Below the pieces are notes generated by a model that worked only from the letters and a program-made list of their open reading frames with translations, was not told the DNA's origin and searched no databases. DNA of 44,482 nt from an uncultured Methanosarcinales archaeon (GTDB lineage: Archaea > Nanobdellota > Nanobdellia > Woesearchaeales > CAYSVS01), in the NCBI GenBank assembly GCA_964479425.1, contig CAYZMD010000002.1, forward strand, positions 1 through 44,482, written 5' to 3'. Positions 21,738-44,482 of the stretch are shown here, piece by piece. The first letter of the stretch is position 1; each line of letters begins with the position of its first letter. A program made the position numbers and the translations under genes.

Positions 21738-21751
21738 GACCATATATCTTT

Positions 21752-24070: not shown

Positions 24071-24145
24071 TTACTTATATTTTTTATAATATATATTTAA
24101 ATTCTCTTATTTTTATCTCTCAAAATTATTGTGTACGAGAACTCA

Positions 24146-25719: not shown

Positions 25720-27174
25720 ATGGCCAACATTGATGAATTAGAAGTGATTTGGAGAAAAGTAAATCAAAGTAAATTTCTGCCCGTATTAGAAATTATAAAA
25801 AAAAATCAATTACAAATAGAAATTGAATCTTCTAAATATACTTTAATAGATACATTCGGAGAAAATCCTAATATTATATTCTTGGGATACTGCCACGGAA
25901 CAAAGCAAAAACATGAAAAAGAGAGAATAAGGAAAATATTAGCTAAAATTGTGAAACCGGGAGATATTATTACAGCCGAAGGCGCAAGTCATGATTGTAG
26001 AGATCAAAAAGATCTTGAATTTATATGTGCTAATGAGATTCCTCACACAAATTTTCGTGCAAGATTTAATGACTCAGTCAGAGATATTGTTTTATCAAGA
26101 ATCAATGAAACCGATTATTTCAAGTCTAAAATAACTAAACAAGAATATATTTCATTTCAACTGAATAATCTTCTAAAACGTGACACTAATTTTTGCAATA
26201 ATGCAGGAAGAGGCCTTATCCAATTGCATGAAAAATTAAAATACCAAAACTACGGAAAGCAAAAAAAGAATAAAATAATCCAATTAATCGGAGCAGGACA
26301 CCTAGCATCAGGAACAATTCGCAATATACTAAGAAGCAAAAATGTTTCATATCAAATGTATGTATCAAACGAAAATATAACTCACAATAAACTTAGAGAA
26401 TTGTCTGACCCAATATATCCTAACAGTATTAAAGAAGATTGGGTATGTTTGCTTGGAGAGCTAGGATACGTAGGGAAAAAAAATATGGCAGCTGAATTGG
26501 ATCAAAAATATGGATTCGATAAATGGGTTAGAGCATTTTTCCATAGAGGAAACATAATTCATAAAGAAGAAGCATTGGTTTTATATGAACAATCATATTA
26601 TGATTTTTTAAAAGATAATGATGGAGTGCGTGAATGGCTAATCAACACGGCCAGTGAAGTATACGACATCCAGCCTTCCAATATAAATTCAGGTTTAGAT
26701 TATTCGATACAGGAATGCTCCGGAGTACATTTCCAAGACATATCAGTAAGAAGGGTGTTAAAACGATTAGGTCTGAAATTCAAAGGCAACCATTTAGTGC
26801 AAATAAGAGGATATGATTCTGAAGGATATGTTCTTAATCCAGGGCAAGTGCCTTTCCATAATCCTGAAGAAATATTGGATAAGGAAACTAAAACATGGTG
26901 GAAACCAAATTCTATTGAAGCTTTCTACCAACATAATAAAGCCCTATTAATTGATCCTAATTCATTGGTTCTTGCGCCAGTCATTGAAGGACCAGAGGGG
27001 ACTTATTTCGCATTAAATAAATCAGTTTATTACCTTCAAGATAAAGAAAATCCAACAATTCTATATAGAAAAAAAGGAAAAAATGTTAGGAGCTTATTAC
27101 ACAAGATTCCACATAATCATCGACAAATAGAAGGAGAAGCTCAACCATATTCTATTTTTCTAAGAAAATCATGA
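25720..27174 (+). CDS. Hypothetical protein with an N-terminal half resembling the TIKI/TraB/GumN superfamily
   Basis: IIFLGYCHGT...IITAEGAS...IIQLIGAGHLASGTIRNIL resembles the GTxH / E / GAGHL signatures of the superfamily. The start is taken at MANIDEL (25720) rather than the track's 25546, which overlaps the divergent gene. Confidence 0.5.
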   Translation: MANIDELEVIWRKVNQSKFLPVLEIIKKNQLQIEIESSKYTLIDTFGENPNIIFLGYCHGTKQKHEKERIRKILAKIVKPGDIITAEGASHDCRDQKDLEFICANEIPHTNFRARFNDSVRDIVLSRINETDYFKSKITKQEYISFQLNNLLKRDTNFCNNAGRGLIQLHEKLKYQNYGKQKKNKIIQLIGAGHLASGTIRNILRSKNVSYQMYVSNENITHNKLRELSDPIYPNSIKEDWVCLLGELGYVGKKNMAAELDQKYGFDKWVRAFFHRGNIIHKEEALVLYEQSYYDFLKDNDGVREWLINTASEVYDIQPSNINSGLDYSIQECSGVHFQDISVRRVLKRLGLKFKGNHLVQIRGYDSEGYVLNPGQVPFHNPEEILDKETKTWWKPNSIEAFYQHNKALLIDPNSLVLAPVIEGPEGTYFALNKSVYYLQDKENPTILYRKKGKNVRSLLHKIPHNHRQIEGEAQPYSIFLRKS

Positions 27175-27249: not shown

Positions 27250-30200
27250 CTAATTTAAGAAATTTTCATTAACCATTTCTTTTATTTCATTTTCTGTATA
27301 ACCTTCACTAAATGATTTAATAACAAAATAATCTATTTCATTATTCTTTTTAGATGGCCATCTTTTTCCATGCAATTTTCTCAATTCATTAATTAATTTT
27401 ACTTTAGGCGCTAGGAATTCCACTTCCTGCTCAACAATATTCTTTATAGTCTCAAGATCTTTAATTCCAGAATTAGTATAATATGAAATTCTTTTACCAA
27501 CTTCACCTTTCATTCTTGCAGGATATTCCAACATTGCTAAAACACGAGTTTTTATGCCATTAGGACTTAAAGGAAGCTCAGCTATATCACCACTAATTTG
27601 ATCAAATGCCTCTTCTACACTATTAACGTCATATGAGTTATATAGATTGTAAAGTTTATCCCGTATAAGAATGAATCTATCTAATGATTTTTCTAATTCA
27701 CGTTCTTTTGATTTGAATTCACCTTCAATGATTTCAGCAATCATTGATTGAGATAATCCTTCTTGGCTCAATTCTTGAGATCTCAAAACCTTTTCTTCTC
27801 GAAGGTTAATTAGTCTCTTCTCAACGCCTAAGACATCTTCATAATTATCTTTAAAATCTTTAGTGTCAAAAATAGATTTAATTAAATTTTTGAAAGATGG
27901 CGTAATTTCAAAATCGTCACCCAATAAAAAATCAATAATAAGGTTAATTTTCATAGGTTTTCCTGGATGAAAATGTCCTAAAGTTGAAATAGGGTCTCCG
28001 GAATACGCCACGTCGTCCTGAGCACTCATAATAAATGAAAATGGAGGAGTTTTTTTCCCTTGCCTTTTGGCAGAATCAAGAACCTTTACAAAGAAAGAAC
28101 TTTCCTGATCCACAATACTTGGATTATGATTAATAATAATATTTGTCAAAAGCTCTATATCTTCTAAATTTGCCCCATTTGCAACAATAGCCTTTCCGTC
28201 ATTTTCAATTCTAAACTGGAATCCGTTTTCTAAAGTCTGTAATCCGGGAGTAATATATTGTGAAATAGGATTTTCATGTTCTATTACTTCACCATCCACT
28301 GTCACAAATTGTGTAGGGGTCATCATATCAAAACCAGATATTGATTTAGTTTCAGGTGCTACAGCTATATCATTAATTTTTTGCATTCTTTCTGAAATGG
28401 GACTAATCGCGCCCGCATCTCCGGTGAAAAGTACTTGGAGTTCCTTATCCGTATCTTGATAATAATCAATAATACCTTTAGCATATTCTTCTGCTTCTTC
28501 ACCAAATGGTTGCGTTGTTACCAAAACAGTTTTATATCCTTCAGGAGTCTTGATTTTGAATCGTTCTGCAGTTATTTTACCCTTTAATTCTTCAACGATT
28601 TCAAAATCTGTTGCTGGCAAAACCTTTTTTATTGCACCTATATCGCCTATTATCAAAATATCGGGTTTTATAATATTCAACGCAGATTTAATTTGTTTAT
28701 CAATCCTTGAAATATGTTTTATTCTGATAATCTGATTAGGATTAAATCCTGCTTGATATAGTGCAGCCTGTAATTGCATTTCCTTTTGTGTGCCTTTTTT
28801 AAGAGTGTTGATAATAATTCTTTTTTCTCCAGTTTCATAATTCTCGGCTATTAAAAATTCAAACGCATTCTCAAAGGGAATGGAATATTTCTTTACACTA
28901 TCAAATCCTTGATCTTTTAAAGTCTTTAATACATCTTGACTTTCGCCTTTATGCATATATAGCGTCCATCCTTGGTTCACCATAGCTTTCAGATGGGGAA
29001 TAATCCTTCCTTTGATATATTCATTAATCTCATTAGTTGCCCAAATTACTCGACCATCATTAGTTATTTGTTTGTAAAATATGGATTTATCCATACCAAC
29101 AACATAATACACATCATTTACAACACTAGTTTTTGAATTTCTTACAGCAAATTTTCTAAAAATTATTTGAGATGGTGGTATCAAGGCATCAATTTCTAAT
29201 TCAAATTCTTTATTGTTTGGAGCCTTCAATACGATTTTCTTCATAATTTTTATGTTGCCATTAACATCTCTAAATTCATAAGAATCTGATTCTGACACAA
29301 TTATATCTACTAGATTAAATACTTCCTCGTCAGAATATTTTTCTACTCCCTTACCAATACTAGCTATTTCAGGGCTAAAACCTGTATTCCTGTTCTTAAT
29401 AGAACCACGATCTGCCAAAATGGTTTCCAAGTCTTGAGTTTCTTTTTCCAAAAAGACTTGCACTTTCTGCCCTTCCAGATCATCAGATGTATGAACTACT
29501 TTTTCCTTTTTTACACCATCTTCAAGATACTGCAATAAAATGTTTTCTAACCTATCATCAATAGTACCCTTCAAATAACCATTATTTAGACGTGTATCCG
29601 AAATAATTTGTAAATTTCCATCTATATCATAATAAAAAATATCAAATATACTATCCTCAATGTTATATGCTTCAGCATATTGACCATCAACAATTGTGGG
29701 TACAGGAGTTCCTAGCTCCTCTCTACGTCTGGCATATTCCTCACTTACTTTTTCTTCAAAATCTCCCTTAAGTTCTGGAGTAATTAATAACAATATTTCT
29801 AAACCTACTGTTCCTTTAACAAACTCAGGATCATGATTGAGTAATTTTTTTATCAGATTTGCATCTTCTTTACTTATTATACCCGTCCTCTCGAAGTTTG
29901 CAGTAAGCGTCATAACGAAATTATCAATAATCTCTTTTTTTGCATTATATAATTTAGTTATGAAATCAAACTTCGTATTTTGTTCAGTTATTGTGGATTC
30001 AGCTCTATTAATAATATCATTAATAGATTCTATTTTAGAAGAAATCTCCTTCTTATTCTCACTAGGAGAGAGTATTGATTCAGAATACCCAAAATAAGTA
30101 ATAAAATCTATAAGCGTATCGCGACTATCCCACACACGCTGAATACTAGTTGTGTCGATTTCTTCGTTTAGTCTTTGTAATTCTGCTTCAATTTTTTCAA

Positions 30201-33200
30201 TAGATTCTCGATTACGCCAATTCTGAAAACGATTATACCAATTTTGTAATATTCCAACTCCAAATAATCCTACTTTGGGTGTTGTTGATAATTGTAATTC
30301 ATCTAATTCATTTTCTAAAGTTTTGACAATATTTTCCAAATTTTGGTCATCCTTAGTAGCGGGGATATTGTCTTTAATTGAAGTATCTGAAGGTTCATCT
30401 GGATTCTTTAAATCCGATAATAATTCAACATTCTTTCTTTCTTTATTATTATCCGGAGTTGTATAGTATGTTTCTGAAAACTCTAAAGTTTGTGGAAGCT
30501 CAATTCCTTCTGTAAGACTTGTATCAACTACCTTTGCCTTCCCAAATACATCATTATTTACAAAGCCCAAAGTTAAATGCAAATATTGTCCTTCATCCCC
30601 TTCTTGTTTTGCAGTTTTAAATCCTAACTTTGTTCTGAAAGCCTCTATTTTTGGACTTTCAATAACTAAAAAATATGTTACCTTATCTTTACTTGAATCT
30701 TTTTTATCTTTCTTTATAACCTTTCCAATTCCTTTTACAGAAACATCATCAACAGTACCCATTTCCTGTAAAGCCCTAGTTACAAGATCTGGATTTTCTT
30801 TCATTATTTTAGATTCGGTAGGACTCATTATTGTAATATGACTTCCAGTTCCTCTCCTTGATTCTAATGTTTCCCTTAAACCAGTAACTCCCTCTTTTTC
30901 TTCTATAGCTGCAATTATCCCTTCAAGATTAGTTGAGACTGAAACGCCTAAGTGGTTTACTTTATTTATTTCTGGAACAACTACTTCTTCAACGATTGGT
31001 GCTTCAACAACAACCTCCTTAACTTTCTTAGATTTTTCAACAAGCTCAGATAATTGAACAAGAACTTCATCTGCCTGGTCTTTATATTTAGCAGTAAAAT
31101 CTTTTGAAAATTCATTTGTTATATCATCGAGTGTAACTTCTTTTTTACTATTAATCATTGGACCAAGTTTGGGCATAATATCTTTTGCCTGCAAATTTAA
31201 AGCGACAAGTCCTGAAGATATTTTTCCTGAATCGTATTCAATAGTATCACCAGTAACACCTTCAATCGACAACGCATTCAAATCATTATTCAATGTGTTT
31301 GGTAAATTGCTTTCTCTTAATCTTCTCTTTGTATTGGAAGATGCTAATACGTGAGTTTCATATGCTGGAATATTTTCTTTTTCTAATAAGACTTCATCAA
31401 TTTCATGTTTTAGAATTAATTCAATAGCTTCATTAATTTGTTGTTGCGAATAACCTTTACTTTTCAAGTTTTTTTCTATTTTTGCCTTATCGACTGTAAT
31501 AATCCATTTCCCGTCTATTTCTTCTGATTTTGCAAATTCTGTTGCATCTCCGTCCTTGATTGTAATGCCTTGAACATCCTTCCCTCCTTTGACAATATCG
31601 GCTGCAGTTAGGCCAATCTTATTTGTGTCGTCATAAGCTTGATCTTTTTGTTGTTTGTATTTTTTCAATACTATTTTTGCAACAACCTTCTTTAAGTCGG
31701 CATCCTTTAAGTAAGTGAAGGAGATTGGGGAGAACCAACCCAAGACCCGACCGACTACTTCCTTTGCAACTGATCTTTTTTCTATTTTTACTTTTTCATC
31801 CGAAACATCAAACTGTTTCTTTTCAATCAATTCTTTATCCAAAATATAAAGTTCATCTTCGAAAACAAAGATATTTTCTGCTTTAGGTATCTTAGAAGAG
31901 GAATAATATTCATCACCTCTAGTAATGCTATCAGCAACAAAGTCATTTCTTGCGAATACTTCAATATTATTTGTTTGACTATCTCCTCTAAATATTCGAT
32001 TATAACTTGGGGTTTCCCACGAATCTATTTTTTTAGACATAGGTTTATCTGAATAAGATGGAAAGAATATCCCCTTTCTGAGAAATTCTAATTCTGTAAA
32101 TTCTAATTCTTTTTCCATATGTACTTCTGGATTTCTGTTATTTAATTCATTAGCCTGAACTCCTGTTGAGCCGTCCTCATTTGTAGCATAATAAATCAAT
32201 TTTGATCCATGAGTGTCAAGCAAATAATCAAAACGATATGGGATCCAAGAACCTATTAATGCATCCACATATTTTCCAGTTGATTCTTGTAGCGCTGCAG
32301 TATCTTCTTTAATAAATCGCGCTTTAGCTATATCTAATTCCCTAATATTGTCATACATTGGCTTATATACTCTCTCTATCAAACCTTGCATCTTCTCTCT
32401 GATAGATTCTATTTTTTCTTCATATTGTGGAGTATCTTCATCTAAATTTTCCCTTTCTTCCTCATACTGCCCCATCTCTGCGATAAACTCTTTACGTAAA
32501 AGATCTATCTTTTGTTCTAACTTAGTTATAGTAGAAGGATATTCAATTGTATTAATTCCAAGCTGTTTTATCTGATCCTTGAATGTAACATGATTTCCTT
32601 TGATGAATGTAAATTTAAGTCCAGCATTCTTTCCTTTTGGATTTGGCACCCATACATTCTCGATTGTTTTGTGAGGAATAAGGTCATATTTATCAATCGC
32701 CAATTCAATTTGTTCTTTGTCTGGATCAACACAAATAACCTCAGCACCTTTCTTTGCTAATAAATATTCTACTATTCCTGTACCTGACCCGACACTAACA
32801 AATACAGGAACCTTATTAGTTGAAACAGATTTTGTCTGTTCAAACATCCTTTTTATATCAATTGATCTTGGTATCCAAAAATTATATACGTTTTTCTTCC
32901 AATCGTTAAATGTAGATTTTTCATCAGCTGCTTTTAATTGATATCTTGTATCTTCATCAATTATTTCTGTTTCTGGAGTTTCTATTAGCTCTTTTGGTTT
33001 TCCTTCTTCATATTCATTAACCTCTTTCATCCTATCCAATTCTGCTTCTATTTCTTCAATCTTTTCTCTATTTCGCCAATTCTGAAATCCGTTGTATAAA
33101 TTCTGTAACGTACCAATTCCAAACATTCCTACTTTAGCTGTCGTTGATACTTTTACTTCTGCAAGTTTTGATTCTAAATTATTTATTGTTTTTTCAATAT

Positions 33201-39200: not shown

Positions 39201-42200
39201 CAAAATATTCAGCAGCAGCATAAACTGCATTATATTTATATTCTGGATTTAACGCTACGTTCTGTAAGATTTCTATAACTCTATCGTCTTGGAATGGGAT
39301 TGAAGACAAGGCCGAAATAATATTTTTATTATCTATCTGATTTTGACCATACATTGAAATTAATATATTCCATTCTTTTACATTTGCATCTTGCTCCATT
39401 GCCAATATTGCTACTTTTCTTATTTCAGGGGAATATGAATCTGATAAAAATTGCTCAAATAGTGGTCTTGCTTTCTTTGAATTCATACGTTTTAAAACAA
39501 TTAATGCTTGTTGCTTTTGTACGTCAGTACCAGTTTTTAAGAATTCTATCATTCTATCTTCAGCGACTGAGCCAAATTCACTTAAAGCCCTTAATGAATC
39601 ATGAGGATAACGTAAATTATCTTCATAAACCTTAGGAAACATTGAGATGATTATGTCAATTGCTACAGGGTCGCCTATTTTTTTAAATATATCAATTAGA
39701 TCAGAATTATCAATAGAATCAATATTTTCAATTAATAAAGAAATAGCTGGTTTTCCAATTAATTCTAAAGCATCCTTAGCTCTCCATGATTTTCTGCCCT
39801 TTGTTTTTAGTACTTCTACAAGTTGTGGAATTAAAGTTTCGTAATTTAATTCGTCAACTTCAATGCCAGCTTCTTTTACCTTCTCTAATATTTGTTCTTC
39901 AAGAGATGGTTTTGATTCTGTTCTTTTATATTCAGCGATTGCTTGATTTCTTTCTTCAATGGTTTTTAAAGAAACAATTTTGTTAATATCATCACCAGAC
40001 ATCCTAGCTAATTGCCAATATATTGCTCTTACTTCTTTAAAATTTCCTTCAAAATTATAAAAATAATCACGTAAAAGAATACGCCTAGTATCTCCTACAC
40101 TTTGTGATGAAATTTCGATTTCAGAACCAGTAAAATATAATTCTGAATACGTTCTTTTTAATACATCAGAAACATAATTATTATTCTTAGGGTCCAATGA
40201 TAAATCTAAGAGAGTTGCATATACTCTTGAAGGATTATCTAATATCCTTAAAGCCTCAATTGCTTTTGTCTTTTCTACGCCGTAAGAAGGTTCAGATAAT
40301 TTATTAAACAATTCATTAATTGTATTTTCATAGCTTTTACTAGTATCGATTCCAGCTTCGTTTGCCAATTTTATTATTTGTGCTTCTTTATCCTGGGAAT
40401 TTATACCTACAATATTTTCAAGTAAACTTTCAGAGGCTTTTCTTTGATTATCAGTTATTATTTTTCTCTCAAGAATGTAAGCTTCTATTTGCTTGTCAGT
40501 TATTATTTCTCTATCAAAAGCGTAAGCTTCTGTTTCAGCTTCTTCAATAATAGCTTTCTGATCTGCAATCTTCTTTTCCAAATCTGAGATTTGTTCTCTA
40601 TTACGCCAATTTTGAAATCCGTTGTATAAATTCTGTAATGTGCCAACTCCAAATAGACCAACTTTTGCTGTTGTTGATACTTTTACTTCTGCAAGTTCTT
40701 TTTCTAATTCATTAATTATTTTTTCGATGTTATCAGTTGATTCTGTTTGTATTAAACGTGAGGCTTCATCTTGGATTTTATATCCTTCTTTCTCTTGTTC
40801 AAGGTTAAATTGTAATTGTTCTAAATATTCTATTGCTTGTTTCGCATCATCTTTAGAATAATATACCAATGATTCTTCTGTTTGTGTTTCACGTAAGTTA
40901 TTAACAGCTCTAATTCGTGAATCGACATTATCTAATGAAGTTTCTAAGCGCCTTTCTAGTGAATTACTACGAATTAATCTATCAGCGCTTTCCTGAACAT
41001 CTTCATTTTCACTTTCTAACATTTTATCAAAAGATTTTACTTCAATATTTTTTCCTTTTTCTTGAGATAATTTTTGAACTAATTCTACTTTATCTCTAGG
41101 AACATATAATACTAAATTATCAGTATCAACGCTTTCTATACCACGTTCACCTGGAATAGTTGATGCAACTTTGACTGTTTCACCTTCATGTCTAATTCCA
41201 TATAATATTGAGAAAGGATTACTTATTAACTCTTTTTCCAAATCACTTAATTCATTCCAGCCTTCTATTCTATTTATTAATAAATTAATTCTTAGTTCTA
41301 AATCCTCTTGAGTATATCGCCATTCTCCCCCTCCAACTCTTTCTCCCCTAGCAAATTTTTCTTTTGTTGCAAGCAAATATGATAACTCAAACTTACCTGA
41401 TTCTGGACTCCATCCTTCTAAACTGTCTGATCTTAAAGCATAATCAGTGCCCCGATCTATAAAACGGGCTTCTACTACTGAAACATAATTTTGACTAACT
41501 CCCGCTATACCCCCAACTAATTCTCCAGTATAGGTTGTAGATGAGTCTTGCTGACCAAATGGTACTAATCCATTATCTATAATATTTAGTAAACTTCCTG
41601 AACCTGAACCATGATAAAAATTAGGTTCATTTTCCTCTTTGACAATATCTTCCAAAGCTTTCTTAACTGGTTCTTCAGCTTTAATCTTTGAATTTAATCC
41701 AGGCAAGACATTATTTTGATAATTGTAACTTGCAATCTCATTTACTTTTTCTAAATAAGGTTGTAATATTTCTAATGGCAAACCATTTGGATATTTTTGT
41801 TTGAATTTTGTAATATCATCATCTGTTAAAATATTTTTAGCATCACGACTTGGCACTTTATATAATACGTTTTCAATGTCTTGAGGATTATCATTTAAGA
41901 ATGCTAATATTAATTTTAATTCTTGATCTTCAAATTGGGATTTCTTATTATCTTCTGTTTGAAGATAGCTCTCATCATTGTCTTGGATATTTTGTTGCTT
42001 TTTATTTTCTAATAATTGATTATTAACTTCTTTAGCAATTGCTTCTTGCTCTGCAATCTGTTTTTCCAAAGCTGCAATTTTATCTCTGTTACGCCAATTT
42101 TGAAATCCGTTGTATAGATTTTGTAATGTGCCAACTCCAATGAATCCTATTTTGGATGTTGTTGAACCTCTTATTCTTCTAAGTTCTTTTTCTAATTCAT

Positions 42201-44482
42201 TAATTTTTTCTTCGATGTTTTCAACATCCTGTTTTGAATCAACAAATACACCAGCGTCTATTAATACTGTAATTTCTTCTTCGGTGAACCCTCTTTTTGT
42301 CAGAATATTTTTTATTTCTTCAATATTTTCTATGTCAGCATCGTAAGCATTCTGAAGGCCTATAGCTTGTAAAGTAGAAACATCTCGTCCAAGAACACTT
42401 TCTGCCCATGCCTTTCGTGATGGATGTCCATTAAATTCATCACTAACTACTTCTGTCTTGGCAATTACTTTATTGACTACTGGACTTGCTCCTGAATCAA
42501 TAATTGGTTTTAATGAAACTATTCCTAATCTTTTCAGACTTCGTTGAGCTGTATCTCGTACTATCAAAACATCATCTGTTAACATTTGTTTAAGATAATC
42601 AACAATATTCAATCCATCAAATTTGCCTAATTCTTCGGCTACTGCTATTCTTATCTTAACAGAATCATGATTTATATTTTTCAATACATTATTAAGAACT
42701 AAAGAACCATATTTAGAACTTGAGAATAAGGCGCTTAATACAACAGCATCGTCTATATCTGTTAAAAGTTTATTCATAAGATCTGGTCTAATTGTAAGTT
42801 TTCCTAAAGCTACAGTAGCTAAAATTCTAAGATTTTTATCATCACTATTTGCAGCATATTCATAAACAGGTTCATATTTACTAGGGGGGATGAAAGTCAT
42901 TACGGTCATAGCTACACGAGAAAATTCAATATTACTTCCATAAATTATATTTGGCAATAGGCTAAGAATATCATCAAGATTACCTAATTCATTTATATCC
43001 CAAAACTTCCTTCTTAATAATTCAAGAGCCCCTTTTACTACCTTAGGATTATCAGATTTTAAAGCTTCAATAAAATGATTTAAATTTGCTTTCTTCAAAT
43101 CAACCAGTAGAGTCAAAGCTGGTATCTGAGTCTCCTTATTTTGTAAGAATGGAATTATATCTTCTTCTATTTTATCGTACTTATTTGATTTAATTACATT
43201 AATTGCTACATCAGACAAATCAGTAGATAACAAAGGAAAAATCAATTCTCTAACCTGATCTGGTTCAATAGATAATTCTGTAAGTGTCTGTAAATTATTT
43301 TTTTGCTTTATTGCTTCTTTTATTAATTCAATATTAGAATCATAATTATTAATCAGTTTTCTCATTTTCTCAAGTGAATTCTTTTTTTGCAACTTATAGA
43401 ATTCGTCTTGAAGGGCTAGTAAAATTGCTCGTTTCTGAAACATTATTTGTTGCGATAATTCAACAGTGCCAAAACCCTCTTTATTTTGTTCTATTGACAA
43501 TGAAGATTCTTTATACCTTTTTTTTGAAGAAGGCTCCTCTTTTCCTACTCCCCATGTACCTGATGCAATTTCTCCTTCATTATCAATAATTAAATTTCCT
43601 TCACTATCTAATTTTACATATCTTGCTTTAGATGTGGGTTTCTCTTTAGTAAAGTCAATATCTAAAAGACTCATTTTTCCGGTATCTAACCCCTTAGCCT
43701 CGGTATCAATTCCAAAAATGGTAACATCAGTTCCATCCTCTGATTTTAGAGAAACTTCTTCAATGCTTGAAACATCTAATCTTGCCCATTTCGAATTATG
43801 TCCAAAAATAAAATTATTTGTTCCTGAAGAATCTACTAATCTTTGAATTTTTTTAGGACTCTTATGAACCTCGTTATCTATAGGAAAATGAGTGATAAAA
43901 ATACCATTAACCTTTGCTCCATAATCTAACGATTCTAAAAATTGATATAATTTAAAAATTTGAGAATCAGGATTTGTTAAATCTTTTGCGACTATTGTTG
44001 CTAATCTACTACCCAGTTCTTCATCTCCAGATCTTCTTCCTGATAATATATTAGATATATCATTTAATCTTTTATAATCTGAAGAACTTTTATCCTTTTT
44101 TTGATCTATTAAATTTTTCTCTTTTAACAAAATCGCATTAAAAACTGCTCTATATGATTCTAAATAGTCATCTGGTGTCAAATATTCTGGATTAAAATAA
44201 GAATCTTCTCTAACTTTTTCAAATTTGCTAAAATCAAAATTGTCTTCTTTATCCATAGCTGCCTTAATTGAACGAAGAGTTCTAAGTGCTTGAACATCGT
44301 GATTTCCAATCAAAAATAAAACTTTAACTCCTGCATTCTCAGCTCTTATTTTAAAGTCGTTTAAAAAATCCAATGCAGTCATTTTATTGCCATCTGCATC
44401 TAGTATGAATTCACCATTTCTTTTAACATCTGAAAAGAAACCAGGTCCGTCGTAATCTCCATTAAAGACTACTGTTGAAACT
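27250..44482 (-). CDS. Giant multi-domain protein, more than 5,743 aa, 5'-partial (frame open to the window edge)
   Basis: The frame is uninterrupted. The 33 codons upstream of the track's Met (…VSTVVFNGDYDGPGFFSDVKRNGEFILDADGNK-M…) contain no stop. See the domain features and findings. Confidence 0.9.
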   Translation of the reverse strand, partial: VSTVVFNGDYDGPGFFSDVKRNGEFILDADGNKMTALDFLNDFKIRAENAGVKVLFLIGNHDVQALRTLRSIKAAMDKEDNFDFSKFEKVREDSYFNPEYLTPDDYLESYRAVFNAILLKEKNLIDQKKDKSSSDYKRLNDISNILSGRRSGDEELGSRLATIVAKDLTNPDSQIFKLYQFLESLDYGAKVNGIFITHFPIDNEVHKSPKKIQRLVDSSGTNNFIFGHNSKWARLDVSSIEEVSLKSEDGTDVTIFGIDTEAKGLDTGKMSLLDIDFTKEKPTSKARYVKLDSEGNLIIDNEGEIASGTWGVGKEEPSSKKRYKESSLSIEQNKEGFGTVELSQQIMFQKRAILLALQDEFYKLQKKNSLEKMRKLINNYDSNIELIKEAIKQKNNLQTLTELSIEPDQVRELIFPLLSTDLSDVAINVIKSNKYDKIEEDIIPFLQNKETQIPALTLLVDLKKANLNHFIEALKSDNPKVVKGALELLRRKFWDINELGNLDDILSLLPNIIYGSNIEFSRVAMTVMTFIPPSKYEPVYEYAANSDDKNLRILATVALGKLTIRPDLMNKLLTDIDDAVVLSALFSSSKYGSLVLNNVLKNINHDSVKIRIAVAEELGKFDGLNIVDYLKQMLTDDVLIVRDTAQRSLKRLGIVSLKPIIDSGASPVVNKVIAKTEVVSDEFNGHPSRKAWAESVLGRDVSTLQAIGLQNAYDADIENIEEIKNILTKRGFTEEEITVLIDAGVFVDSKQDVENIEEKINELEKELRRIRGSTTSKIGFIGVGTLQNLYNGFQNWRNRDKIAALEKQIAEQEAIAKEVNNQLLENKKQQNIQDNDESYLQTEDNKKSQFEDQELKLILAFLNDNPQDIENVLYKVPSRDAKNILTDDDITKFKQKYPNGLPLEILQPYLEKVNEIASYNYQNNVLPGLNSKIKAEEPVKKALEDIVKEENEPNFYHGSGSGSLLNIIDNGLVPFGQQDSSTTYTGELVGGIAGVSQNYVSVVEARFIDRGTDYALRSDSLEGWSPESGKFELSYLLATKEKFARGERVGGGEWRYTQEDLELRINLLINRIEGWNELSDLEKELISNPFSILYGIRHEGETVKVASTIPGERGIESVDTDNLVLYVPRDKVELVQKLSQEKGKNIEVKSFDKMLESENEDVQESADRLIRSNSLERRLETSLDNVDSRIRAVNNLRETQTEESLVYYSKDDAKQAIEYLEQLQFNLEQEKEGYKIQDEASRLIQTESTDNIEKIINELEKELAEVKVSTTAKVGLFGVGTLQNLYNGFQNWRNREQISDLEKKIADQKAIIEEAETEAYAFDREIITDKQIEAYILERKIITDNQRKASESLLENIVGINSQDKEAQIIKLANEAGIDTSKSYENTINELFNKLSEPSYGVEKTKAIEALRILDNPSRVYATLLDLSLDPKNNNYVSDVLKRTYSELYFTGSEIEISSQSVGDTRRILLRDYFYNFEGNFKEVRAIYWQLARMSGDDINKIVSLKTIEERNQAIAEYKRTESKPSLEEQILEKVKEAGIEVDELNYETLIPQLVEVLKTKGRKSWRAKDALELIGKPAISLLIENIDSIDNSDLIDIFKKIGDPVAIDIIISMFPKVYEDNLRYPHDSLRALSEFGSVAEDRMIEFLKTGTDVQKQQALIVLKRMNSKKARPLFEQFLSDSYSPEIRKVAILAMEQDANVKEWNILISMYGQNQIDNKNIISALSSIPFQDDRVIEILQNVALNPEYKYNAVYAAAEYFEKFKDPLALKILVDAVKDPETRDSAARYLLNLGYRDFEMYKELLNDDSEDIRRIAIRGLGYFPESLDILIDQAKTLNPNVPSSSLKYSYLDIIIEQIIFLGGDNAAPLLEELLMKEKASRSFQDSVIKGIARVGNKKLINELISRFSQMSLGGDLYFTTYKFLESNRLLGDLIIGLSEDFENEKSQESLEGVIEHWAAIDPSINKRVVNSMIKNLKDPKLSNAAFKILIKMPNKAELLVDALSNPDYKEVKKKVLDLIYDNIVDLYSSSNANLLLQKLLEESIPVGFISEKNIVTALSLKAQSENVELNEEYAKKHNIPYSYFDDVNNFDRILREGNTVAVYHQIRDGMGDELIRVANLIQALKDKYPNLKIILYTNRPKLYSQSEKFETKELSLMEEDFKNNDYDMTVQFDSFYGGLNEMDKIVKEKKAPIKMNMAQVSFSVDLDIDGADIQFEDKTNVYSPGSKMLAYLGLPMRVGTQQPVTDNFIVAKEDAEANEYWDKNVVSKNNENRKVTLFNGFGGQRYNKGYTSLDQLSKDIGKLIDSGEFIAISPNDKIWGTEDIATQVYDMLTPEQRKHAHVLPGPSKGYTNQFVKNSDKVVTVEGGMMHFAYNLGKPMILVLKKEAGSQIWVPYFDENQHVINGIEEGYEITEPTDNIDERLKNIKNEQQLISEKDIASETITVESAPTVDAEVQTTFSFSYLGEEALNLQIARDALKTNENLKSKVHDETNELMNNFDSTSFLKEGKVKLTNNIEIVVGRLPTITQISKKGDNWIVTIDYIKLNSNLKENHESDMTDILELVIKHEIDEILIQEESSLNEYDTHVLSSSNTKRRFRALENINPSLSSDLSDLTKIVDIVQFKEKETRIALVNLEVLLREKGLRAESIEKIIESNNKLIDSALKNKEESRQYTALDGVLFVISRYQTLLSQNLVNVDYFDEISLEYFAFRKSDFSNAPDKATKSKISFDIAIDKGKPFVYEVKKYPRLAYGSTKANRNQALKYQKAIEDGLIDGASIELSGRIDANFMKWAVGESVGEFAQIKDIEIVYSMLLPSGSEYRFILKSSESNNGLDFNNDNKAYTKEDWEVVNGIHQAILDGSIIRIITSPNIENMPAEFIKDPFKILSAKSFIEYENFRNQALWKEFKEKKQIINKNNKLNSVSDFSESYLENMINSFQDYLNQNPEVAKVKKSYMLSQEQRVQVFDLMKERISKIRDYEISRQESPNFDVKSEQRRSLEYAGFDEGSVLDLDHIMMDAIQETNKKPGKKGRNYDNPERFKTLEQLTEYLNNPDLDRFSISVTEYDPETGKTKIKEFSNHVAYNKAEFQMIKQNEKRFSNYLQNLPNLISSLDPQSLLYKELISLQKGYQINKKKIESIRGDIKQLLAQKGITIRDAPIKSDDSNIKTKTQLSNEYNEKEKELLLKLVEIYDYQLNSGWEKNAKQIVEKKEQNIIKFIYIINADGEMVFDEEVLKGVITGRAAHSELSKGRNVYGAGEIVFEKRNGKWVLVEINNGSGHFRPPSETLPYAKNILEDNGVDVESVVLKNSLLRGVPESSLFGDIEPAEQETAKESSQSPLLDKIKIGITQSYIPNEKWDDLSTEQKARAVVAQMGIEYNSEWTSAIEEAHKLGEGDLGPRVNGLYLESTYSNKIITEKNNLMKEVEIPHDVRKALLDYGVVGNSIEYDSEKISSGLEGLGFKEDEEKNIIMDKLREIIAKGKEVTNNDIRAEFLEDFTAKYEGQANRVLGQLYGLVKSSKKVEKTVVKETIAEEVVIPEINRVNHLGVSVSTNLDSVIAAIEEKEGVTGLKNTLVQRRGEGHHLSIMPPTDSKIMKENPDFVKQALAEMGEINDLVVKGIGKVIKEDKKDSAKDKVSYYLVVDSQKVREFREKLRQETLKENPESTKFITYSDDLSDAQKAKALHLHLTLGFVNNDVFNQPKVVDEGLTSGIEIPETLDSLETYYTTPADNKVRKDVKLLLDAKDPLLQKIQDEDPSLTESTENIEKTINNLESKLAEVKVSTTAKVGMFGIGTLQNLYNGFQNWRNREKIEEIEAELDRMKEVNEYEEGKPKELIETPETEIIDEDTRYQLKAADEKSTFNDWKKNVYNFWIPRSIDIKRMFEQTKSVSTNKVPVFVSVGSGTGIVEYLLAKKGAEVICVDPDKEQIELAIDKYDLIPHKTIENVWVPNPKGKNAGLKFTFIKGNHVTFKDQIKQLGINTIEYPSTITKLEQKIDLLRKEFIAEMGQYEEERENLDEDTPQYEEKIESIREKMQGLIERVYKPMYDNIRELDIAKARFIKEDTAALQESTGKYVDALIGSWIPYRFDYLLDTHGSKLIYYATNEDGSTGVQANELNNRNPEVHMEKELEFTELEFLRKGIFFPSYSDKPMSKKIDSWETPSYNRIFRGDSQTNNIEVFARNDFVADSITRGDEYYSSSKIPKAENIFVFEDELYILDKELIEKKQFDVSDEKVKIEKRSVAKEVVGRVLGWFSPISFTYLKDADLKKVVAKIVLKKYKQQKDQAYDDTNKIGLTAADIVKGGKDVQGITIKDGDATEFAKSEEIDGKWIITVDKAKIEKNLKSKGYSQQQINEAIELILKHEIDEVLLEKENIPAYETHVLASSNTKRRLRESNLPNTLNNDLNALSIEGVTGDTIEYDSGKISSGLVALNLQAKDIMPKLGPMINSKKEVTLDDITNEFSKDFTAKYKDQADEVLVQLSELVEKSKKVKEVVVEAPIVEEVVVPEINKVNHLGVSVSTNLEGIIAAIEEKEGVTGLRETLESRRGTGSHITIMSPTESKIMKENPDLVTRALQEMGTVDDVSVKGIGKVIKKDKKDSSKDKVTYFLVIESPKIEAFRTKLGFKTAKQEGDEGQYLHLTLGFVNNDVFGKAKVVDTSLTEGIELPQTLEFSETYYTTPDNNKERKNVELLSDLKNPDEPSDTSIKDNIPATKDDQNLENIVKTLENELDELQLSTTPKVGLFGVGILQNWYNRFQNWRNRESIEKIEAELQRLNEEIDTTSIQRVWDSRDTLIDFITYFGYSESILSPSENKKEISSKIESINDIINRAESTITEQNTKFDFITKLYNAKKEIIDNFVMTLTANFERTGIISKEDANLIKKLLNHDPEFVKGTVGLEILLLITPELKGDFEEKVSEEYARRREELGTPVPTIVDGQYAEAYNIEDSIFDIFYYDIDGNLQIISDTRLNNGYLKGTIDDRLENILLQYLEDGVKKEKVVHTSDDLEGQKVQVFLEKETQDLETILADRGSIKNRNTGFSPEIASIGKGVEKYSDEEVFNLVDIIVSESDSYEFRDVNGNIKIMKKIVLKAPNNKEFELEIDALIPPSQIIFRKFAVRNSKTSVVNDVYYVVGMDKSIFYKQITNDGRVIWATNEINEYIKGRIIPHLKAMVNQGWTLYMHKGESQDVLKTLKDQGFDSVKKYSIPFENAFEFLIAENYETGEKRIIINTLKKGTQKEMQLQAALYQAGFNPNQIIRIKHISRIDKQIKSALNIIKPDILIIGDIGAIKKVLPATDFEIVEELKGKITAERFKIKTPEGYKTVLVTTQPFGEEAEEYAKGIIDYYQDTDKELQVLFTGDAGAISPISERMQKINDIAVAPETKSISGFDMMTPTQFVTVDGEVIEHENPISQYITPGLQTLENGFQFRIENDGKAIVANGANLEDIELLTNIIINHNPSIVDQESSFFVKVLDSAKRQGKKTPPFSFIMSAQDDVAYSGDPISTLGHFHPGKPMKINLIIDFLLGDDFEITPSFKNLIKSIFDTKDFKDNYEDVLGVEKRLINLREEKVLRSQELSQEGLSQSMIAEIIEGEFKSKERELEKSLDRFILIRDKLYNLYNSYDVNSVEEAFDQISGDIAELPLSPNGIKTRVLAMLEYPARMKGEVGKRISYYTNSGIKDLETIKNIVEQEVEFLAPKVKLINELRKLHGKRWPSKKNNEIDYFVIKSFSEGYTENEIKEMVNENFLN
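27980..28760 (-). other. Giant ORF domain: PNP/UDP-type nucleoside phosphorylase / nucleosidase-like
   Basis: DILIIGDIGAI, VLVTTQPFGEEAEEYAKGII...VLFTGDAGAISP...NDIAVAPE and VDQESSFFVKVL...PPFSFIMSAQDD are present. They follow the MTAN/PNP pattern (GiGkv.AA...G.AGgl...GDivv...EME.aA...pf..iR.iSD). Confidence 0.45.
30165..30345 (-). repeat. Giant ORF linker module L4
   Basis: ENIVKTLENELDELQLSTTPKVGLFGVGILQNWYNRFQNWRNRESIEKIEAELQRLNEE. Confidence 0.9.
30470..30980 (-). other. Giant ORF domain: 2H phosphoesterase-like, copy 2
   Basis: GSHITIM (30826-30849) and YLHLTLGF (30562-30590) are present. It is clearly paralogous to copy 1 along its whole length. Confidence 0.5.
32220..32830 (-). other. 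Giant ORF domain: class I SAM-dependent methyltransferase (with a coiled-coil insertion)
   Basis: Motif I and the post-I acidic residue read VFVSVGSGTGIVEYLLAKKGAEVICVDPDKEQIELA (32771-32799 encodes VSVGSGTGIV). Confidence 0.65.
33020..33215 (-). repeat. Giant ORF linker module L3
   Basis: ENIEKTINNLESKLAEVKVSTTAKVGMFGIGTLQNLYNGFQNWRNREKIEEIEAELDRMKE. It shares exact 25- and 26-nt runs with L2. Confidence 0.9.
33310..33880 (-). other. Giant ORF domain: 2H phosphoesterase-like, copy 1
   Basis: There are two H-h-[ST]-h motifs, GHHLSIM (near 33731-33751) and HLHLTLGF (near 33415-33440). Confidence 0.5.
34560..34800 (-). other. Giant ORF segment: conserved-looking beta-rich module ending in NNGSGHFRPP
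   Basis: GRAAHSELSKGRNVYGAGEIVFEKRNGKWVLVEINNGSGHFRPP is reminiscent of C-terminal modules of polymorphic toxins. I cannot name a family. Confidence 0.2.
36000..36400 (-). other. Giant ORF segment: possible PD-(D/E)xK nuclease-like motif
   Basis: The only evidence is ISFDIAIDKGKPFVYEVKKY (D-x11-E-V-K). Confidence 0.2.
37290..38215 (-). other. Giant ORF domain: GT-B glycosyltransferase, GT9 (heptosyltransferase)-like
   Basis: The N-lobe GMGDELIRVANLIQALKDKYPNLKIILYT resembles iGD..l..P...aLk..yP.a.I. The C-lobe VVTVEGGMMHFAYNLGKPMILV resembles DSGpMHlAaAlG.P.v.l. Confidence 0.5.
38350..39850 (-). other. Giant ORF domain: HEAT-like repeat array 2 (about 500 aa)
   Basis: SWRAKDALELIGKPA, DVQKQQALIVLKRM, SPEIRKVAILAM, DPETRDSAARYLLNLG and SEDIRRIAIRGLG are present, among others. 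Confidence 0.55.
40545..40745 (-). repeat. Giant ORF linker module L2
   Basis: DNIEKIINELEKELAEVKVSTTAKVGLFGVGTLQNLYNGFQNWRNREQISDLEKKIADQKAI. Confidence 0.9.
41050..41640 (-). other. Giant ORF domain: possible ADP-ribosyltransferase-like (PARP/Tpt1-like) fold
   Basis: FYHGSGSGSLLNIIDNGL resembles the [FLW]-[YWH]-HG-[ST]...IL..GL strand-helix of H-Y-E ARTs. SSTTY and HEGE motifs lie downstream. This rests on motifs only. Confidence 0.3.
42030..42230 (-). repeat. Giant ORF linker module L1
   Basis: ENIEEKINELEKELRRIRGSTTSKIGFIGVGTLQNLYNGFQNWRNRDKIAALEKQIAEQEAI. Confidence 0.9.
42520..43200 (-). other. Giant ORF domain: HEAT-like repeat array 1
   Basis: Helical repeats of about 30 aa recur: SDNPKVVKGALELL, SDDKNLRILATVALGKL, HDSVKIRIAVAEELGK, DDVLIVRDTAQRSLKRLG. 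Confidence 0.55.
43780..44482 (-). other. Giant ORF domain: calcineurin-like metallophosphoesterase
   Basis: FNGDYDGPG (GD motif), VLFLIGNHDV (GNHD/E), IFITHFPI and FIFGHNSKW (GH) occur in canonical order. Confidence 0.6.

What the first reader, a model, noticed from the sequence alone, without database searches (positions are those of the whole stretch)
30165..42230. Four copies of an unrecognised ~60-aa linker module (…NIEK.IN.LE..L…STT.KVG.FGVGTLQNLYNGFQNWRNRE.I…) delimit the cassettes of the giant protein
Seen directly:
- The modules lie at about 42030-42230, 40545-40745, 33020-33215 and 30165-30345 (about aa 750, 1250, 3760 and 4710).
- Each consists of a predicted helix (ENIEK.INELEKEL), a Gly/aromatic core (STTxK[IV]GxFG[VI]G[TI]LQN[LW]YN[GR]FQNWRNR) and a second heptad-like helix (E.I..LE..I...).
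- Conservation extends to the DNA. L2 and L3 share exact runs TGAAATCCGTTGTATAAATTCTGTAA and GTTGATACTTTTACTTCTGCAAGTT on the plus strand.
- The antisense strand therefore yields three look-alike artefactual ORFs starting MYKFCNVP or MYRFCNVP.
- Each module sits at a domain boundary: before the ART-like domain, before HEAT2/GT9, after 2H-1 and before the MTase, and after 2H-2.

Inference: the module could be a processing site that releases cassettes from a polyprotein, an oligomerisation hairpin, or a glycine-zipper membrane-interacting element (G-x-F-G-x-G). All three are untested.
Basis: partly seen in the sequence, partly recalled or inferred. Interest (0 to 1): 0.8.

Follow-up and report, generated by a model that had tools for sequence, protein, structure and literature searches.

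The report
Orphan hairpin module repeated in giant protein
A giant multi-enzyme protein of more than 5,700 residues, almost free of cysteine, in a tiny symbiotic (DPANN) archaeon carries four copies of a roughly 60-residue helix-loop-helix module. The module's 28-residue centre is strongly conserved and matches no known family. It probably acts as a docking or junction element between enzyme cassettes, but its function is unproven.

Summary
Exactly four copies of a 59-aa module lie in the giant minus-strand ORF, at window 42046-42222, 40558-40734, 33028-33204 and 30169-30345. Each scores 109-117 bits against the module profile, and there are no degenerate extra copies.

The copies are old intragenic duplicates (dS 0.4-1.3). 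The 28-aa centre, STTxK[VI]Gx[FI]G[VI]GxLQNxYNxFQNWRNR, has dN/dS of 0.06-0.25. The flanking heptad helices have 0.5-1.07 and the neighbouring 2H enzyme cassette 0.38. Conservation is therefore protein-level selection, not recency and not an RNA or DNA signal.

The module is an orphan. It has no Pfam or PDB family and no relative among 1.84 billion protein representatives, GTDB genomes, JGI metagenomes or IMG/VR. The one exception is a short motif repeated three times in a cysteine-free 1,520-aa phage protein that sits where podophages encode ejection proteins.

A low-confidence AlphaFold2 model gives helix, Gly-rich loop, short amphipathic helix, helix. It resembles only helical hairpins.

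The glycine-zipper or membrane reading is rejected: no GxxxG and hydropathy far below transmembrane level. Processing stays possible but unsupported, because no canonical protease was found.

Best guess (about 0.4): a coiled-coil hairpin whose conserved cap is a docking surface.

The parts
27250..44482 (-). Giant ORF that carries the modules. It is at least 5743 codons and open to the window end; the listed ATG at 44382 is internal.
   Evidence: The 33 codons upstream of the ATG are open and encode NGDYDGPG, which resembles metallophosphatase motif II, ahead of GNHD. Profile hits: HEAT_2 at aa 535-617 and about 1768-1842, 2H-SAK (PF22547) twice, and a weak methyltransferase at aa 3856-3932. 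One Cys in 5710 aa.
42046..42222 (-). Module L1 (aa 721-779). Conserved core aa 739-766 = window 42085-42168.
   Evidence: (108.7 bits).
40558..40734 (-). Module L2 (aa 1217-1275). Core aa 1235-1262 = window 40597-40680.
   Evidence: (116.8 bits). This copy was modelled with AF2.
33028..33204 (-). Module L3 (aa 3727-3785). Core aa 3745-3772 = window 33067-33150. It is the C-terminal end of 2H cassette 1.
   Evidence: (117.2 bits).
30169..30345 (-). Module L4 (aa 4680-4738). Core aa 4698-4725 = window 30208-30291. It is the C-terminal end of 2H cassette 2.
   Evidence: (110.9 bits).
33205..34227 (-). 2H phosphoesterase cassette 1 (aa 3386-3726), duplicated together with L3.
   Evidence: Self-comparison, Pfam 2H-SAK, dN/dS 0.38 against cassette 2.
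30346..31320 (-). 2H phosphoesterase cassette 2 (aa 4355-4679), duplicated together with L4.
36640..37116 (-). 'KHEIDE...Y[DE]THVLxSSNTKRR' domain, copy 1 (aa 2423-2581). Candidate variant zincin-like domain; relevant only to the processing hypothesis.
   Evidence: Fold matches are not significant.
31267..31731 (-). 'KHEIDE' domain, copy 2 (aa 4218-4372), directly upstream of 2H cassette 2.
   Evidence: (AF2 pLDDT 72.7, pTM 0.70).

Best explanation
Each module is a small autonomous protein element. Two short amphipathic, heptad-patterned helices of about 20 residues fold back on each other as an antiparallel stalk. At the tip they present a conserved 28-residue cap. The cap consists of an STT turn, a flexible K[VI]GxFG[VI]G loop, and an amphipathic helix, LQNxYNxFQNWRNR. 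The Leu/Tyr/Phe/Trp face of that helix packs on the stalk. Its invariant Gln/Asn face is exposed.

I propose that the cap is a docking surface. It would bind either the other copies, bundling the cassettes of one protein or of several, or one common partner that is thereby recruited at four points along the polypeptide.

Shown: the four copies, their anatomy, purifying selection on the cap, and the absence of any known family. Inferred: the hairpin geometry, from a low-confidence model, and the docking role.
For: - Selection on the core. dN/dS is 0.06-0.25 in all six pairwise comparisons at dS 0.6-1.2. The arms give 0.5-1.07 and the adjacent 2H enzyme cassette 0.38. 19 of 28 core positions are invariant against 7 of 31 in the arms (Fisher p = 6e-4).
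- A conserved tip on fast-evolving arms that keep their heptads is the pattern expected of a coiled-coil apex that makes contacts.
- The invariant residues include the whole polar face of helix B (Q, N, N, Q, N, N). A passive spacer would not preserve this.
- The AF2 model of L2 with flanks gives helix 2-52, loop 53-64, helix 65-79, helix 81-138. Its Foldseek neighbours are all helical hairpins: PspA with 131 aligned columns, FadA, the Rad50 hook and prefoldin.
- The modules are bounded by Pro-rich or acidic, polar sequence. DNA similarity starts and stops sharply at the module edges, so the module is a discrete unit.
- No nucleic-acid-level signal. Core dS is not reduced and RNA fold z-scores run from -0.7 to +1.0.
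Against: - The structural model is weak (mean pLDDT 66, pTM 0.36, four-sequence alignment) and all fold matches have E > 1.
- No oligomer prediction could be run and no partner is identified.
- There are only four sequences, all from one protein, so selection estimates rest on 28 codons and non-independent pairs.
- In the phage protein P0002, the only outside relative, the motif lies in Pro-rich sequence without clear coiled-coil arms. That fits a short linear motif, such as a cleavage or recognition site, at least as well as a hairpin cap.
Confidence: 0.4

Rival explanations
1. Processing site. The giant protein would be a polyprotein, in the manner of phage or plasmid polyvalent proteins or MARTX toxins. 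The module's exposed Gly-rich loop would be the site where a protease releases the cassettes. The protease might be the duplicated 'KHEIDE...TH' domain or a host enzyme.
For: - The same conserved peptide recurs at cassette junctions.
- The loop STTxKVGxFGVG is the least confident, non-helical part of the model, with pLDDT below 50 at residues 60-63.
- The protein carries two copies of an alpha/beta domain with an HExxE...H signature. Its non-significant fold neighbours repeatedly include zincins: YbeY, MATCAP, BlaR1, SprT-like, IrrE and lethal factor.
- Polyvalent proteins are proposed to be cut into units by an internal metallopeptidase (PMC5512222).
- The only outside relative of the motif is in a Cys-free phage protein in the ejection-protein position, where the motif also lies between regions.
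Against: - No HExxH, no Ser- or Cys-protease motif, and only one Cys in the protein.
- All fold matches of the KHEIDE domain have E >= 0.1 and TM <= 0.36. There is no Pfam or PDB sequence hit for it.
- A conserved 28-residue core on a structured stalk is far larger than known protease recognition sites.
- Many domain boundaries have no module.
- There is no experimental evidence of cleavage.
Confidence: 0.22
2. Membrane- or interface-binding element. The Gly/aromatic segment would insert into, or lie on, a membrane. This could be the organism's own membrane or that of the host cell of this DPANN symbiont. It would anchor the protein or help translocate the cassettes.
For: - The best sub-threshold sequence similarities are all to 'hydrophobic helix followed by coiled coil' proteins: DivIC/FtsB (E 0.006), FtsL_2, LapA and XhlA, and NDUFA13 (E 0.26).
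- Helix B is amphipathic with a Trp/Tyr/Phe face.
- Near-total lack of Cys in the giant protein and in phage P0002 is typical of exported or translocated proteins.
- P0002 occupies the position of podophage ejection proteins.
Against: - Maximum Kyte-Doolittle 19-mer mean is 0.36-0.81 in the modules.
- Five Asn/Gln lie within the putative span.
- No [GAS]xxxG in any copy.
- All family hits are well below their gathering scores.
- Four true membrane passes would place the putative SAM-dependent methyltransferase outside the cell (inference).
- muH of 0.43 with mean hydrophobicity of -0.34 is modest for an interfacial helix.
Confidence: 0.1
3. Evolutionary scaffold only. The modules would be structurally inert spacers whose main significance is genetic. 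As in-frame direct repeats of about 180 nt with exact runs of 25-26 nt, they would allow homologous recombination that duplicates, deletes or swaps cassettes.
For: - Similarity begins and ends sharply at the module edges of L1, L2 and L3 while the flanks are unrelated.
- Exact runs of 25-26 nt are shared by L2 and L3, and a 25-nt run by L1 and L2.
- Identical-codon use at identical residues is 0.61-0.82 against about 0.54 expected. This is compatible with occasional gene conversion.
Against: - dS between copies is 0.4-1.3, so homogenisation is not ongoing.
- The strong protein-level constraint on the core, with dS not reduced there, is not explained by a recombination role.
- A second assembly of the same population (99.96% identical) shows no cassette rearrangement over the region it covers.
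- No homologous giant genes exist to show shuffling.
Confidence: 0.1
4. Substrate tether. The Arg/Asn/Gln/Trp-rich helix (FQNWRNR) would bind RNA or nucleotide-derived substrates next to RNA-end-processing cassettes such as 2H phosphoesterase, methyltransferase and phosphoesterase.
For: - The giant protein carries two 2H-SAK domains, a Pfam family named after 'Swiss Army Knife' multi-domain proteins, and a putative methyltransferase.
- The exposed face of helix B is invariant and made of amide and guanidinium side chains.
Against: - Only two Arg and one Lys in the core. There is no similarity to any nucleic-acid-binding family.
- L1 and L2 do not adjoin recognisable RNA enzymes.
- The idea is purely inferential.
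Confidence: 0.06

Closest known systems
Repeated motif in metagenomic phage protein P0002 (1520 aa; IMG/VR UViG 3300020576_001600, a podophage-like genome of about 37.6 kb)
   Same: - This is the only significant hit in 1.84 billion representatives (E 2.8e-4).
- It has three copies of [ST]Px[IV]GMxGxGT[LV]Q[ND]L[YL][DN]RF-like sequence, at aa 179-192, 578-597 and 633-649. These align to core positions 21-42 and are closest to L4 (TPKVGLFGVGILQNWYNRFQ).
- Like the archaeal protein, it is large, lacks Cys (0 of 1520), and carries the motif between regions.
   Different: - Only about 15-20 residues are shared. The WRNR end and the heptad arms are absent, and the surroundings are Pro-rich.
- Each single copy is insignificant on its own (i-Evalue above 100 for the library).
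- P0002 is itself an orphan. Its Pelagibacter-phage homologue lacks the motif.
Rad50 zinc hook and other coiled-coil apex elements (functional analogy only)
   Same: - An antiparallel coiled-coil hairpin with a short, strongly conserved apex on fast-diverging arms, where the apex mediates association.
- The Rad50 hook (1l8d) is among the hairpin structures nearest to the model.
   Different: - No CxxC and no Cys at all in the module.
- The match is not significant (E 2.7).
- The stalk here is about 20 residues per arm, not hundreds.
- The element is repeated within one polypeptide.
DivIC/FtsB/FtsL family (PF04977, PF19579) and NDUFA13: hydrophobic helix followed by a coiled coil
   Same: Best sub-threshold profile matches. 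The G[VI]GTLQNLY...WRNRE + heptad-helix stretch aligns to the transmembrane-to-coiled-coil junction of these proteins.
   Different: - Scores of 12-17 bits against a gathering score of 28.9. PDB E-values are 0.26 or worse.
- The module segment is not hydrophobic enough to span a membrane.
- Those proteins are small single-pass membrane proteins, not internal repeats.
Inter-effector junctions of polyvalent proteins (Iyer et al. 2017, PMC5512222) and MARTX toxins (MARTX from my own knowledge)
   Same: A very large polypeptide stringing unrelated enzymatic cassettes, including a 2H phosphoesterase, with junctions at which units are thought to be separated. Low Cys content fits a delivered protein.
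   Different: - Those systems have a recognisable processing peptidase: a zincin-like MPTase with HExxH, or a cysteine protease domain. Their junctions are short and poorly conserved.
- Here no canonical peptidase is found and the junction element is a conserved, folded 60-aa module.
- The gene is chromosomal in an archaeon, not in a phage or plasmid context.
Docking domains and dimerisation elements of modular polyketide synthases (from my own knowledge)
   Same: Short helical modules of about 30-60 aa placed between catalytic units of megaenzymes. They hold units together through small helical bundles.
   Different: No sequence relation was detected. No carrier-protein logic or assembly-line domains are present. 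This comparison was not tested with profiles.

Membership tests
DivIC/FtsB septum-formation initiator (Pfam PF04977) | Profile score at or above the Pfam gathering score (28.9 bits) | tested here: not met
   Best copy scores 16.9 bits (E 0.0058); the others score 12-13.4 bits.
DivIC/FtsB septum-formation initiator (Pfam PF04977) | N-terminal membrane-spanning helix ahead of the coiled coil | tested here: not met
   Highest Kyte-Doolittle 19-residue mean in the modules is 0.36-0.81.
Glycine-zipper / GxxxG membrane helix motif | (G/A/S)xxxGxxxG, or at least one [GAS]xxxG pair on one helix face | tested here: not met
   A regular-expression scan of all four copies finds none. The glycines are spaced GxxGxG.
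Glycine-zipper / GxxxG membrane helix motif | Hydrophobic membrane-spanning context | tested here: not met
   Hydropathy is far below transmembrane level. Five invariant Asn/Gln lie within the segment.
Rad50-type zinc hook | CxxC at the apex of an antiparallel coiled coil | tested here: not met
   No Cys in any module. The only Cys of the protein is at aa 3884.
Rad50-type zinc hook | Antiparallel coiled-coil hairpin | tested here: inconclusive
   The AF2 model is helix-loop-helix-helix (pLDDT 66). Foldseek neighbours are hairpins, but with E > 1.
Self-processing polyprotein (polyvalent-protein MPTase type or MARTX CPD type) | Recognisable internal peptidase domain (zincin HExxH, or a Cys/Ser protease catalytic motif) | tested here: not met
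   No HExxH, HxxEH, GxSG or GxCG. No peptidase family in Pfam, NCBIfam, PHROGs or PADLOC.
Self-processing polyprotein (polyvalent-protein MPTase type or MARTX CPD type) | A domain with a zincin-like fold that could be a variant peptidase | tested here: inconclusive
   KHEIDE domain model has pTM 0.70. Best PDB and BFVD matches have E of 0.1-4 and TM <= 0.36, but several are zincins.
Self-processing polyprotein (polyvalent-protein MPTase type or MARTX CPD type) | Demonstrated cleavage at the junctions | not testable with these tools
   Needs proteomics or expression of a cassette-module-cassette construct.
Pfam 2H-SAK (PF22547) bearing proteins (applies to the host protein, not the module) | 2H-SAK domain above the gathering score | tested here: met
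   70.2 bits against a cut-off of 27, with two stretches. The two copies lie in the duplicated cassettes.
Any curated protein family or solved structure (module itself) | A significant profile match of the module | tested here: not met
   - Pfam: nothing above cut-off at E <= 10.
- PDB profile search: best E 0.1.
- Word-indexed search of 5.8 billion proteins: none.
- HMM against 1.84 billion representatives: only P0002 and one artefact.

The most novel reading that the evidence does not exclude
The module and the related motif in the phage ejection-position protein define a previously unseen junction element of delivered mega-proteins. On this reading, the cysteine-free archaeal giant is an effector polyprotein that the DPANN symbiont passes into or onto its host cell. 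The four modules would be the points at which it is docked to a translocation apparatus, or cut into separate enzymes after delivery.
Probability: 0.1. Interest if true: 0.8.

Novelty: new variant of a known kind. Interest (0 to 1): 0.45.

Why it matters
Giant multi-enzyme proteins are turning up in symbiotic and predatory microbes with small genomes. How they are organised, exported or processed is not understood.

This case offers a discrete, strongly selected 60-residue element recurring between cassettes. It is a concrete handle: it can be expressed alone, tested for self-association, partner binding, lipid binding or cleavage, and used as a search profile as more long-read metagenomes appear.

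If it proves to be a docking or processing junction shared with phage ejection proteins, it would link archaeal symbiont effectors to the 'polyvalent protein' strategy of mobile elements.

If it is only a lineage-specific structural hairpin, it stays a curiosity of one protein in one uncultured Woesearchaeota-like archaeon.

Tried and rejected
1. Searches for relatives of the module found nothing usable.
   - The word-indexed search found none.
   - The profile search of 1.84 billion representatives found only P0002 and P0001. P0001 is an artefact: tandemly repeated angiotensin-converting-enzyme fragments.
   - Pattern scans of GTDB genomes, JGI metagenomes and IMG/VR found nothing.
   - A degenerate DNA pattern for G[LM]FGxGTxQ[ND] in IMG/VR gave only P0002 and two chance matches.
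2. The 2H cassette plus L3 used as a query found no homologue. Partial genes cut by contig ends seem to be missing from the protein libraries, because the window's own protein was not returned. Absence of relatives is therefore weaker evidence than the database sizes suggest.
3. Orthologue by synteny. Woesearchaeota and Nanoarchaeota relatives (LeuRS 61-78% identical) keep the order LeuRS, metallo-beta-lactamase, presenilin-type peptidase. None has a homologue of the giant gene in the flanks.
4. The neighbouring presenilin-like signal-peptide peptidase as the processing enzyme: rejected. Its position is ancestral synteny, independent of the giant gene.
5. RNA structure or another nucleic-acid signal in the repeats: rejected.
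6. Transmembrane or glycine-zipper reading: rejected.
7. Resemblances to an IQ motif, to a TEV or 3C-like cleavage site (LQ|N, FQ|N), and to the protein-kinase Gly loop were noticed by eye. Pfam lists no such family even at E <= 10, and no 3C-like protease motif exists in the protein. I treat them as coincidences.
8. The adjacent 542-aa ORF (25546-27174) has a GYCHGT...AEGASHD...GAGHL arrangement that recalled TIKI/TraB-type domains from memory. Pfam gives no such hit even at E <= 10.
9. The Burroughs and Aravind 2016 paper that, from memory, defines 'Swiss Army Knife' proteins could not be read.
10. Domain checks on the cassettes after L1 and after L2 found no ART or glycosyltransferase support.
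Full report
**1. What is there**

The window's right third is one minus-strand ORF, 27250-44382 as listed, giving 5710 aa. The heptapeptide FQNWRNR occurs four times in it. The surrounding 59 residues align without gaps.

| Module | Residues | Window coordinates |
|---|---|---|
| L1 | aa 721-779 | 42046-42222 |
| L2 | aa 1217-1275 | 40558-40734 |
| L3 | aa 3727-3785 | 33028-33204 |
| L4 | aa 4680-4738 | 30169-30345 |

26 of 59 columns are invariant. A profile built from the four copies recovers exactly these four in a six-frame translation of the window, at 109-117 bits each and nothing else above 8 bits.

The look-alike antisense ORFs are TTG-started by-products of the repeat.

**2. Anatomy**

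Each module has three parts.
- Arm A, about 18 residues with a heptad pattern (NIEKIINELEKELAEVK).
- A 28-residue core, STTxK[VI]Gx[FI]G[VI]GxLQNxYNxFQNWRNR.
- Arm C, another heptad helix ([ED]xIxxLEKxIAxQ).

AlphaFold2 on L2 with its flanks used the four copies as the only alignment. It gave helix 2-52, a loop at 53-64 (STTAKVGLFGVG, the lowest-confidence part), a short helix at 65-79 (TLQNLYNGFQNWRN) and a helix at 81-138. Mean pLDDT was 66 and pTM 0.36. Foldseek neighbours in the PDB are all helical hairpins: PspA, FadA, the Rad50 hook, prefoldin and PE/PPE. All have E > 1, so this indicates shape only.

On a helical wheel the short helix places L, L, Y, F and W on one face. The invariant Q, N, N, Q, N, N lie on the other face.

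In L3 and L4 prolines limit arm A to about 20 residues. A Gly-Lys-Pro limits arm C of L3 to about 22. The flanks are polar, acidic or Pro-rich. The picture is a short two-helix stalk carrying a conserved cap, set in linker sequence.

**3. Origin and selection**

A self-comparison shows that L3 and L4 are the ends of a duplicated cassette of about 400 aa containing the 2H phosphoesterase domain (aa 3386-3787 versus 4355-4740, about 60% identity). L1 and L2 are isolated copies with unrelated flanks.

Codon identity at identical residues is 0.61-0.82, against about 0.54 expected from the gene's codon usage. The 2H cassette gives 0.66 against 0.50 expected. The DNA similarity is therefore what unsaturated intragenic duplicates show.

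Nei-Gojobori estimates:

| Region | dN/dS | Note |
|---|---|---|
| Module core (28 aa) | 0.06-0.25 | all six pairs; dS between copies 0.4-1.3 |
| Module arms | 0.5-1.07 | |
| 2H cassette | 0.38 | |

Core dS is not lower than arm dS. 19 of 28 core positions are invariant against 7 of 31 arm positions (p = 6e-4). The mRNA of the modules folds no better than shuffles (z from -0.7 to +1.0).

The core is therefore held by protein-level purifying selection. That selection is stronger than on the neighbouring enzyme. Recent copying or an RNA/DNA signal does not explain it. The caveat is that these are four sequences, 28 codons and non-independent pairs.

**4. Relatives**

No curated family matches.
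- Pfam at E <= 10 lists only sub-threshold coiled-coil families and families with a transmembrane helix followed by a coiled coil. The best is DivIC at 16.9 bits against a cut-off of 28.9.
- A PDB profile search gives nothing better than E 0.1. NDUFA13 appears at 0.26.
- The word-indexed search of 5.8 billion proteins found nothing.
- The exhaustive profile search of 1.84 billion representatives found two proteins. One is an artefact of repeated ACE fragments. The other is P0002, a 1520-aa protein (E 2.8e-4).

P0002 has three short copies of the core's first half: IGQGTVTDLLNRFQ, SPLIGMNGIGTVQNLYDRFMN and TPKIGMFGAGTLQDLL. It is an orphan. It lies in a podophage-like contig of about 37.6 kb, at the end of the structural gene block.

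P0002's C-terminal part is distantly related (20.8% identity, E 1e-12) to a 2329-aa protein of Pelagibacter phage Baldr. That protein sits between the genes that follow tail tubular protein B and the tail fibre gene. From my knowledge of T7-like genomes, this is the position of ejection proteins. The Baldr protein lacks the motif.

Pattern scans of GTDB genomes, JGI metagenomes and IMG/VR found no module. The 2H cassette plus L3 found no homologue either.

A caveat applies. The window's own protein was never returned, probably because genes cut by contig ends are not in the libraries. Other fragmented giant genes may therefore be invisible too.

**5. Context**

The neighbours are cellular and archaeal. 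They include an intein-containing GyrA, archaeal-type LeuRS, an AAA ATPase, a presenilin-type peptidase and tRNA-His. LeuRS is 61-78% identical to Woesearchaeota and Nanoarchaeota MAGs.

Those relatives keep the local gene order. They have no homologue of the giant gene, or of the two ORFs next to it, in their flanks. The gene is therefore lineage-specific.

The giant protein has profile support for HEAT repeats, two 2H-SAK domains and a weak methyltransferase.

The protein has one cysteine in 5710 residues, against 1.15% in the 21 neighbouring ORFs (binomial P about 1e-27). The reading frame is open to the window end, and the 33 upstream codons encode a metallophosphatase-like GDYDG motif. 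The true N-terminus is therefore outside the window.

An independent ENA contig, 99.96% identical, ends inside the gene only 11 codons short of the window end.

**6. Testing the proposed roles**

Glycine zipper or membrane. No [GAS]xxxG occurs in any copy. The highest 19-residue hydropathy is 0.81 in the modules and 1.46 anywhere in the protein. I reject this as a membrane span. A weak interfacial role is not excluded.

Processing. There is no HExxH, GxSG or GxCG, and no peptidase family in four libraries. A duplicated domain with the signature KHEIDE...Y[DE]THVLxSSNTKRR models with pTM 0.70 as a beta-sheet followed by helices. Its non-significant neighbours (E 0.1-4) repeatedly include zincins: YbeY, MATCAP, BlaR1, SprT-like, IrrE and lethal factor. 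That is a lead, not a finding. The adjacent presenilin-type peptidase is ancestral synteny and not linked to the giant gene.

Hairpin or docking. This fits the model's shape, the conserved cap on fast-evolving arms, and the invariant polar face. It could not be tested directly because no multimer prediction was available.

Recombination scaffold. The in-frame repeats with exact runs of 25-26 nt could mediate cassette gain or loss. This does not explain the protein-level constraint, and no variants were seen.

**7. Verdict**

The finding is real, and the module is new as a sequence family. I file it as a new variant of a known kind: short helical modules placed between units of very large proteins.

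My confidences are:
- Docking cap on a coiled-coil hairpin: 0.4.
- Protease recognition or cleavage junction: 0.22.
- Membrane or interface element: 0.1.
- Recombination scaffold only: 0.1.
- Substrate tether: 0.06.

The most novel reading still open, at about 0.1, has two parts. The module and the phage motif would mark junctions of delivered mega-proteins, and the Cys-free giant would be a symbiont effector polyprotein.

I score interest at 0.45. The feature is clean, selected and unexplained, and it sits in a remarkable protein. But it is known from a single protein in a single uncultured population, and nothing yet shows what it does.

Noticed in passing
window 27250-44382 (-), whole giant ORF: Near-total absence of cysteine: 1 Cys (aa 3884) in 5710 residues, against 86 Cys in 7470 residues (1.15%) in the 21 neighbouring ORFs (binomial P about 1e-27). 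His is also low (0.9% against 1.8%). The phage protein that shares the motif has 0 Cys in 1520 aa. This suggests an exported or translocated protein.
   Followed up: partly
window 44383-44482 (-): The giant ORF has no stop upstream of its listed ATG. The 33 codons up to the window edge read VSTVVFNGDYDGPGFFSDVKRNGEFILDADGNK. This resembles metallophosphatase motif II ahead of the GNHD motif at aa 26-29. The protein is therefore longer than 5743 aa and its N-terminus, with any signal peptide or further modules, is outside the window. An independent ENA contig (k141_90630, 99.96% identical) ends only 11 codons short of the window end. This may point to a repeat that breaks assemblies.
   Followed up: partly
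window 36640-37116 and 31267-31731 (-): Duplicated domain of about 155 aa (34% identity) with an invariant KHEIDE...Y[DE]THVLxSSNTKRRxR signature. The AF2 model is fairly confident (pLDDT 73, pTM 0.70): a beta-sheet followed by helices. There is no significant match in PDB, BFVD, Pfam or PDB sequences. Weak neighbours include several zincin-type metallopeptidases. It may be a new HExxE...H variant hydrolase domain.
   Followed up: partly
window 21484-21748 and 24079-24343 (+): A direct repeat of about 265 nt (87% identity, with a 187-nt stretch at 99.5%) flanks the DUF2339 membrane-protein gene (21752-24070). One copy covers the 3' end of the presenilin-type peptidase gene. The other overlaps the start of the GNAT acetyltransferase gene. 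Relatives have the peptidase next to the metallo-beta-lactamase gene without DUF2339, so this looks like an insertion bounded by a duplication.
   Followed up: partly
window 25-2454 (+): The GyrA ORF at the left edge begins with the C-terminal splicing region of an intein (Pfam Intein_splicing, aa 8-66). It then continues into the topoisomerase domain at profile position 92. This is an intein-interrupted gyrase A in an archaeon.
   Followed up: no
window 25009-27174: Two ORFs next to the giant gene are absent from the syntenic regions of relatives, like the giant gene itself. They are a 542-aa ORF (+, His- and Cys-rich, no family hit) and a 191-aa ORF (-, one predicted hydrophobic helix, six Cys). 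They may belong to the same inserted island. The 542-aa ORF has a GYCHGT...AEGASHD...GAGHL arrangement that I could not tie to any family.
   Followed up: partly
window 10011-11540 (+): A DDE transposase (DDE_Tnp_1_6 plus DUF772) sits among housekeeping genes. This is a mobile element in a small symbiont genome.
   Followed up: no
L001 10001-14563 (phage contig Ga0364484_10187; also L002, L003, L046): P0002 is an orphan 1520-aa protein with no cysteine. It lies at the end of the structural block of a podophage-like genome of about 37.6 kb that also encodes SU10-type adaptors, a Prim-Pol/D5 primase and a Gad1-like gene. It carries three copies of the G.GT[LV]Q[ND]L[YL][DN]RF motif between an unknown N-terminal region and a C-terminal region shared with a Pelagibacter phage giant protein.
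   Followed up: partly
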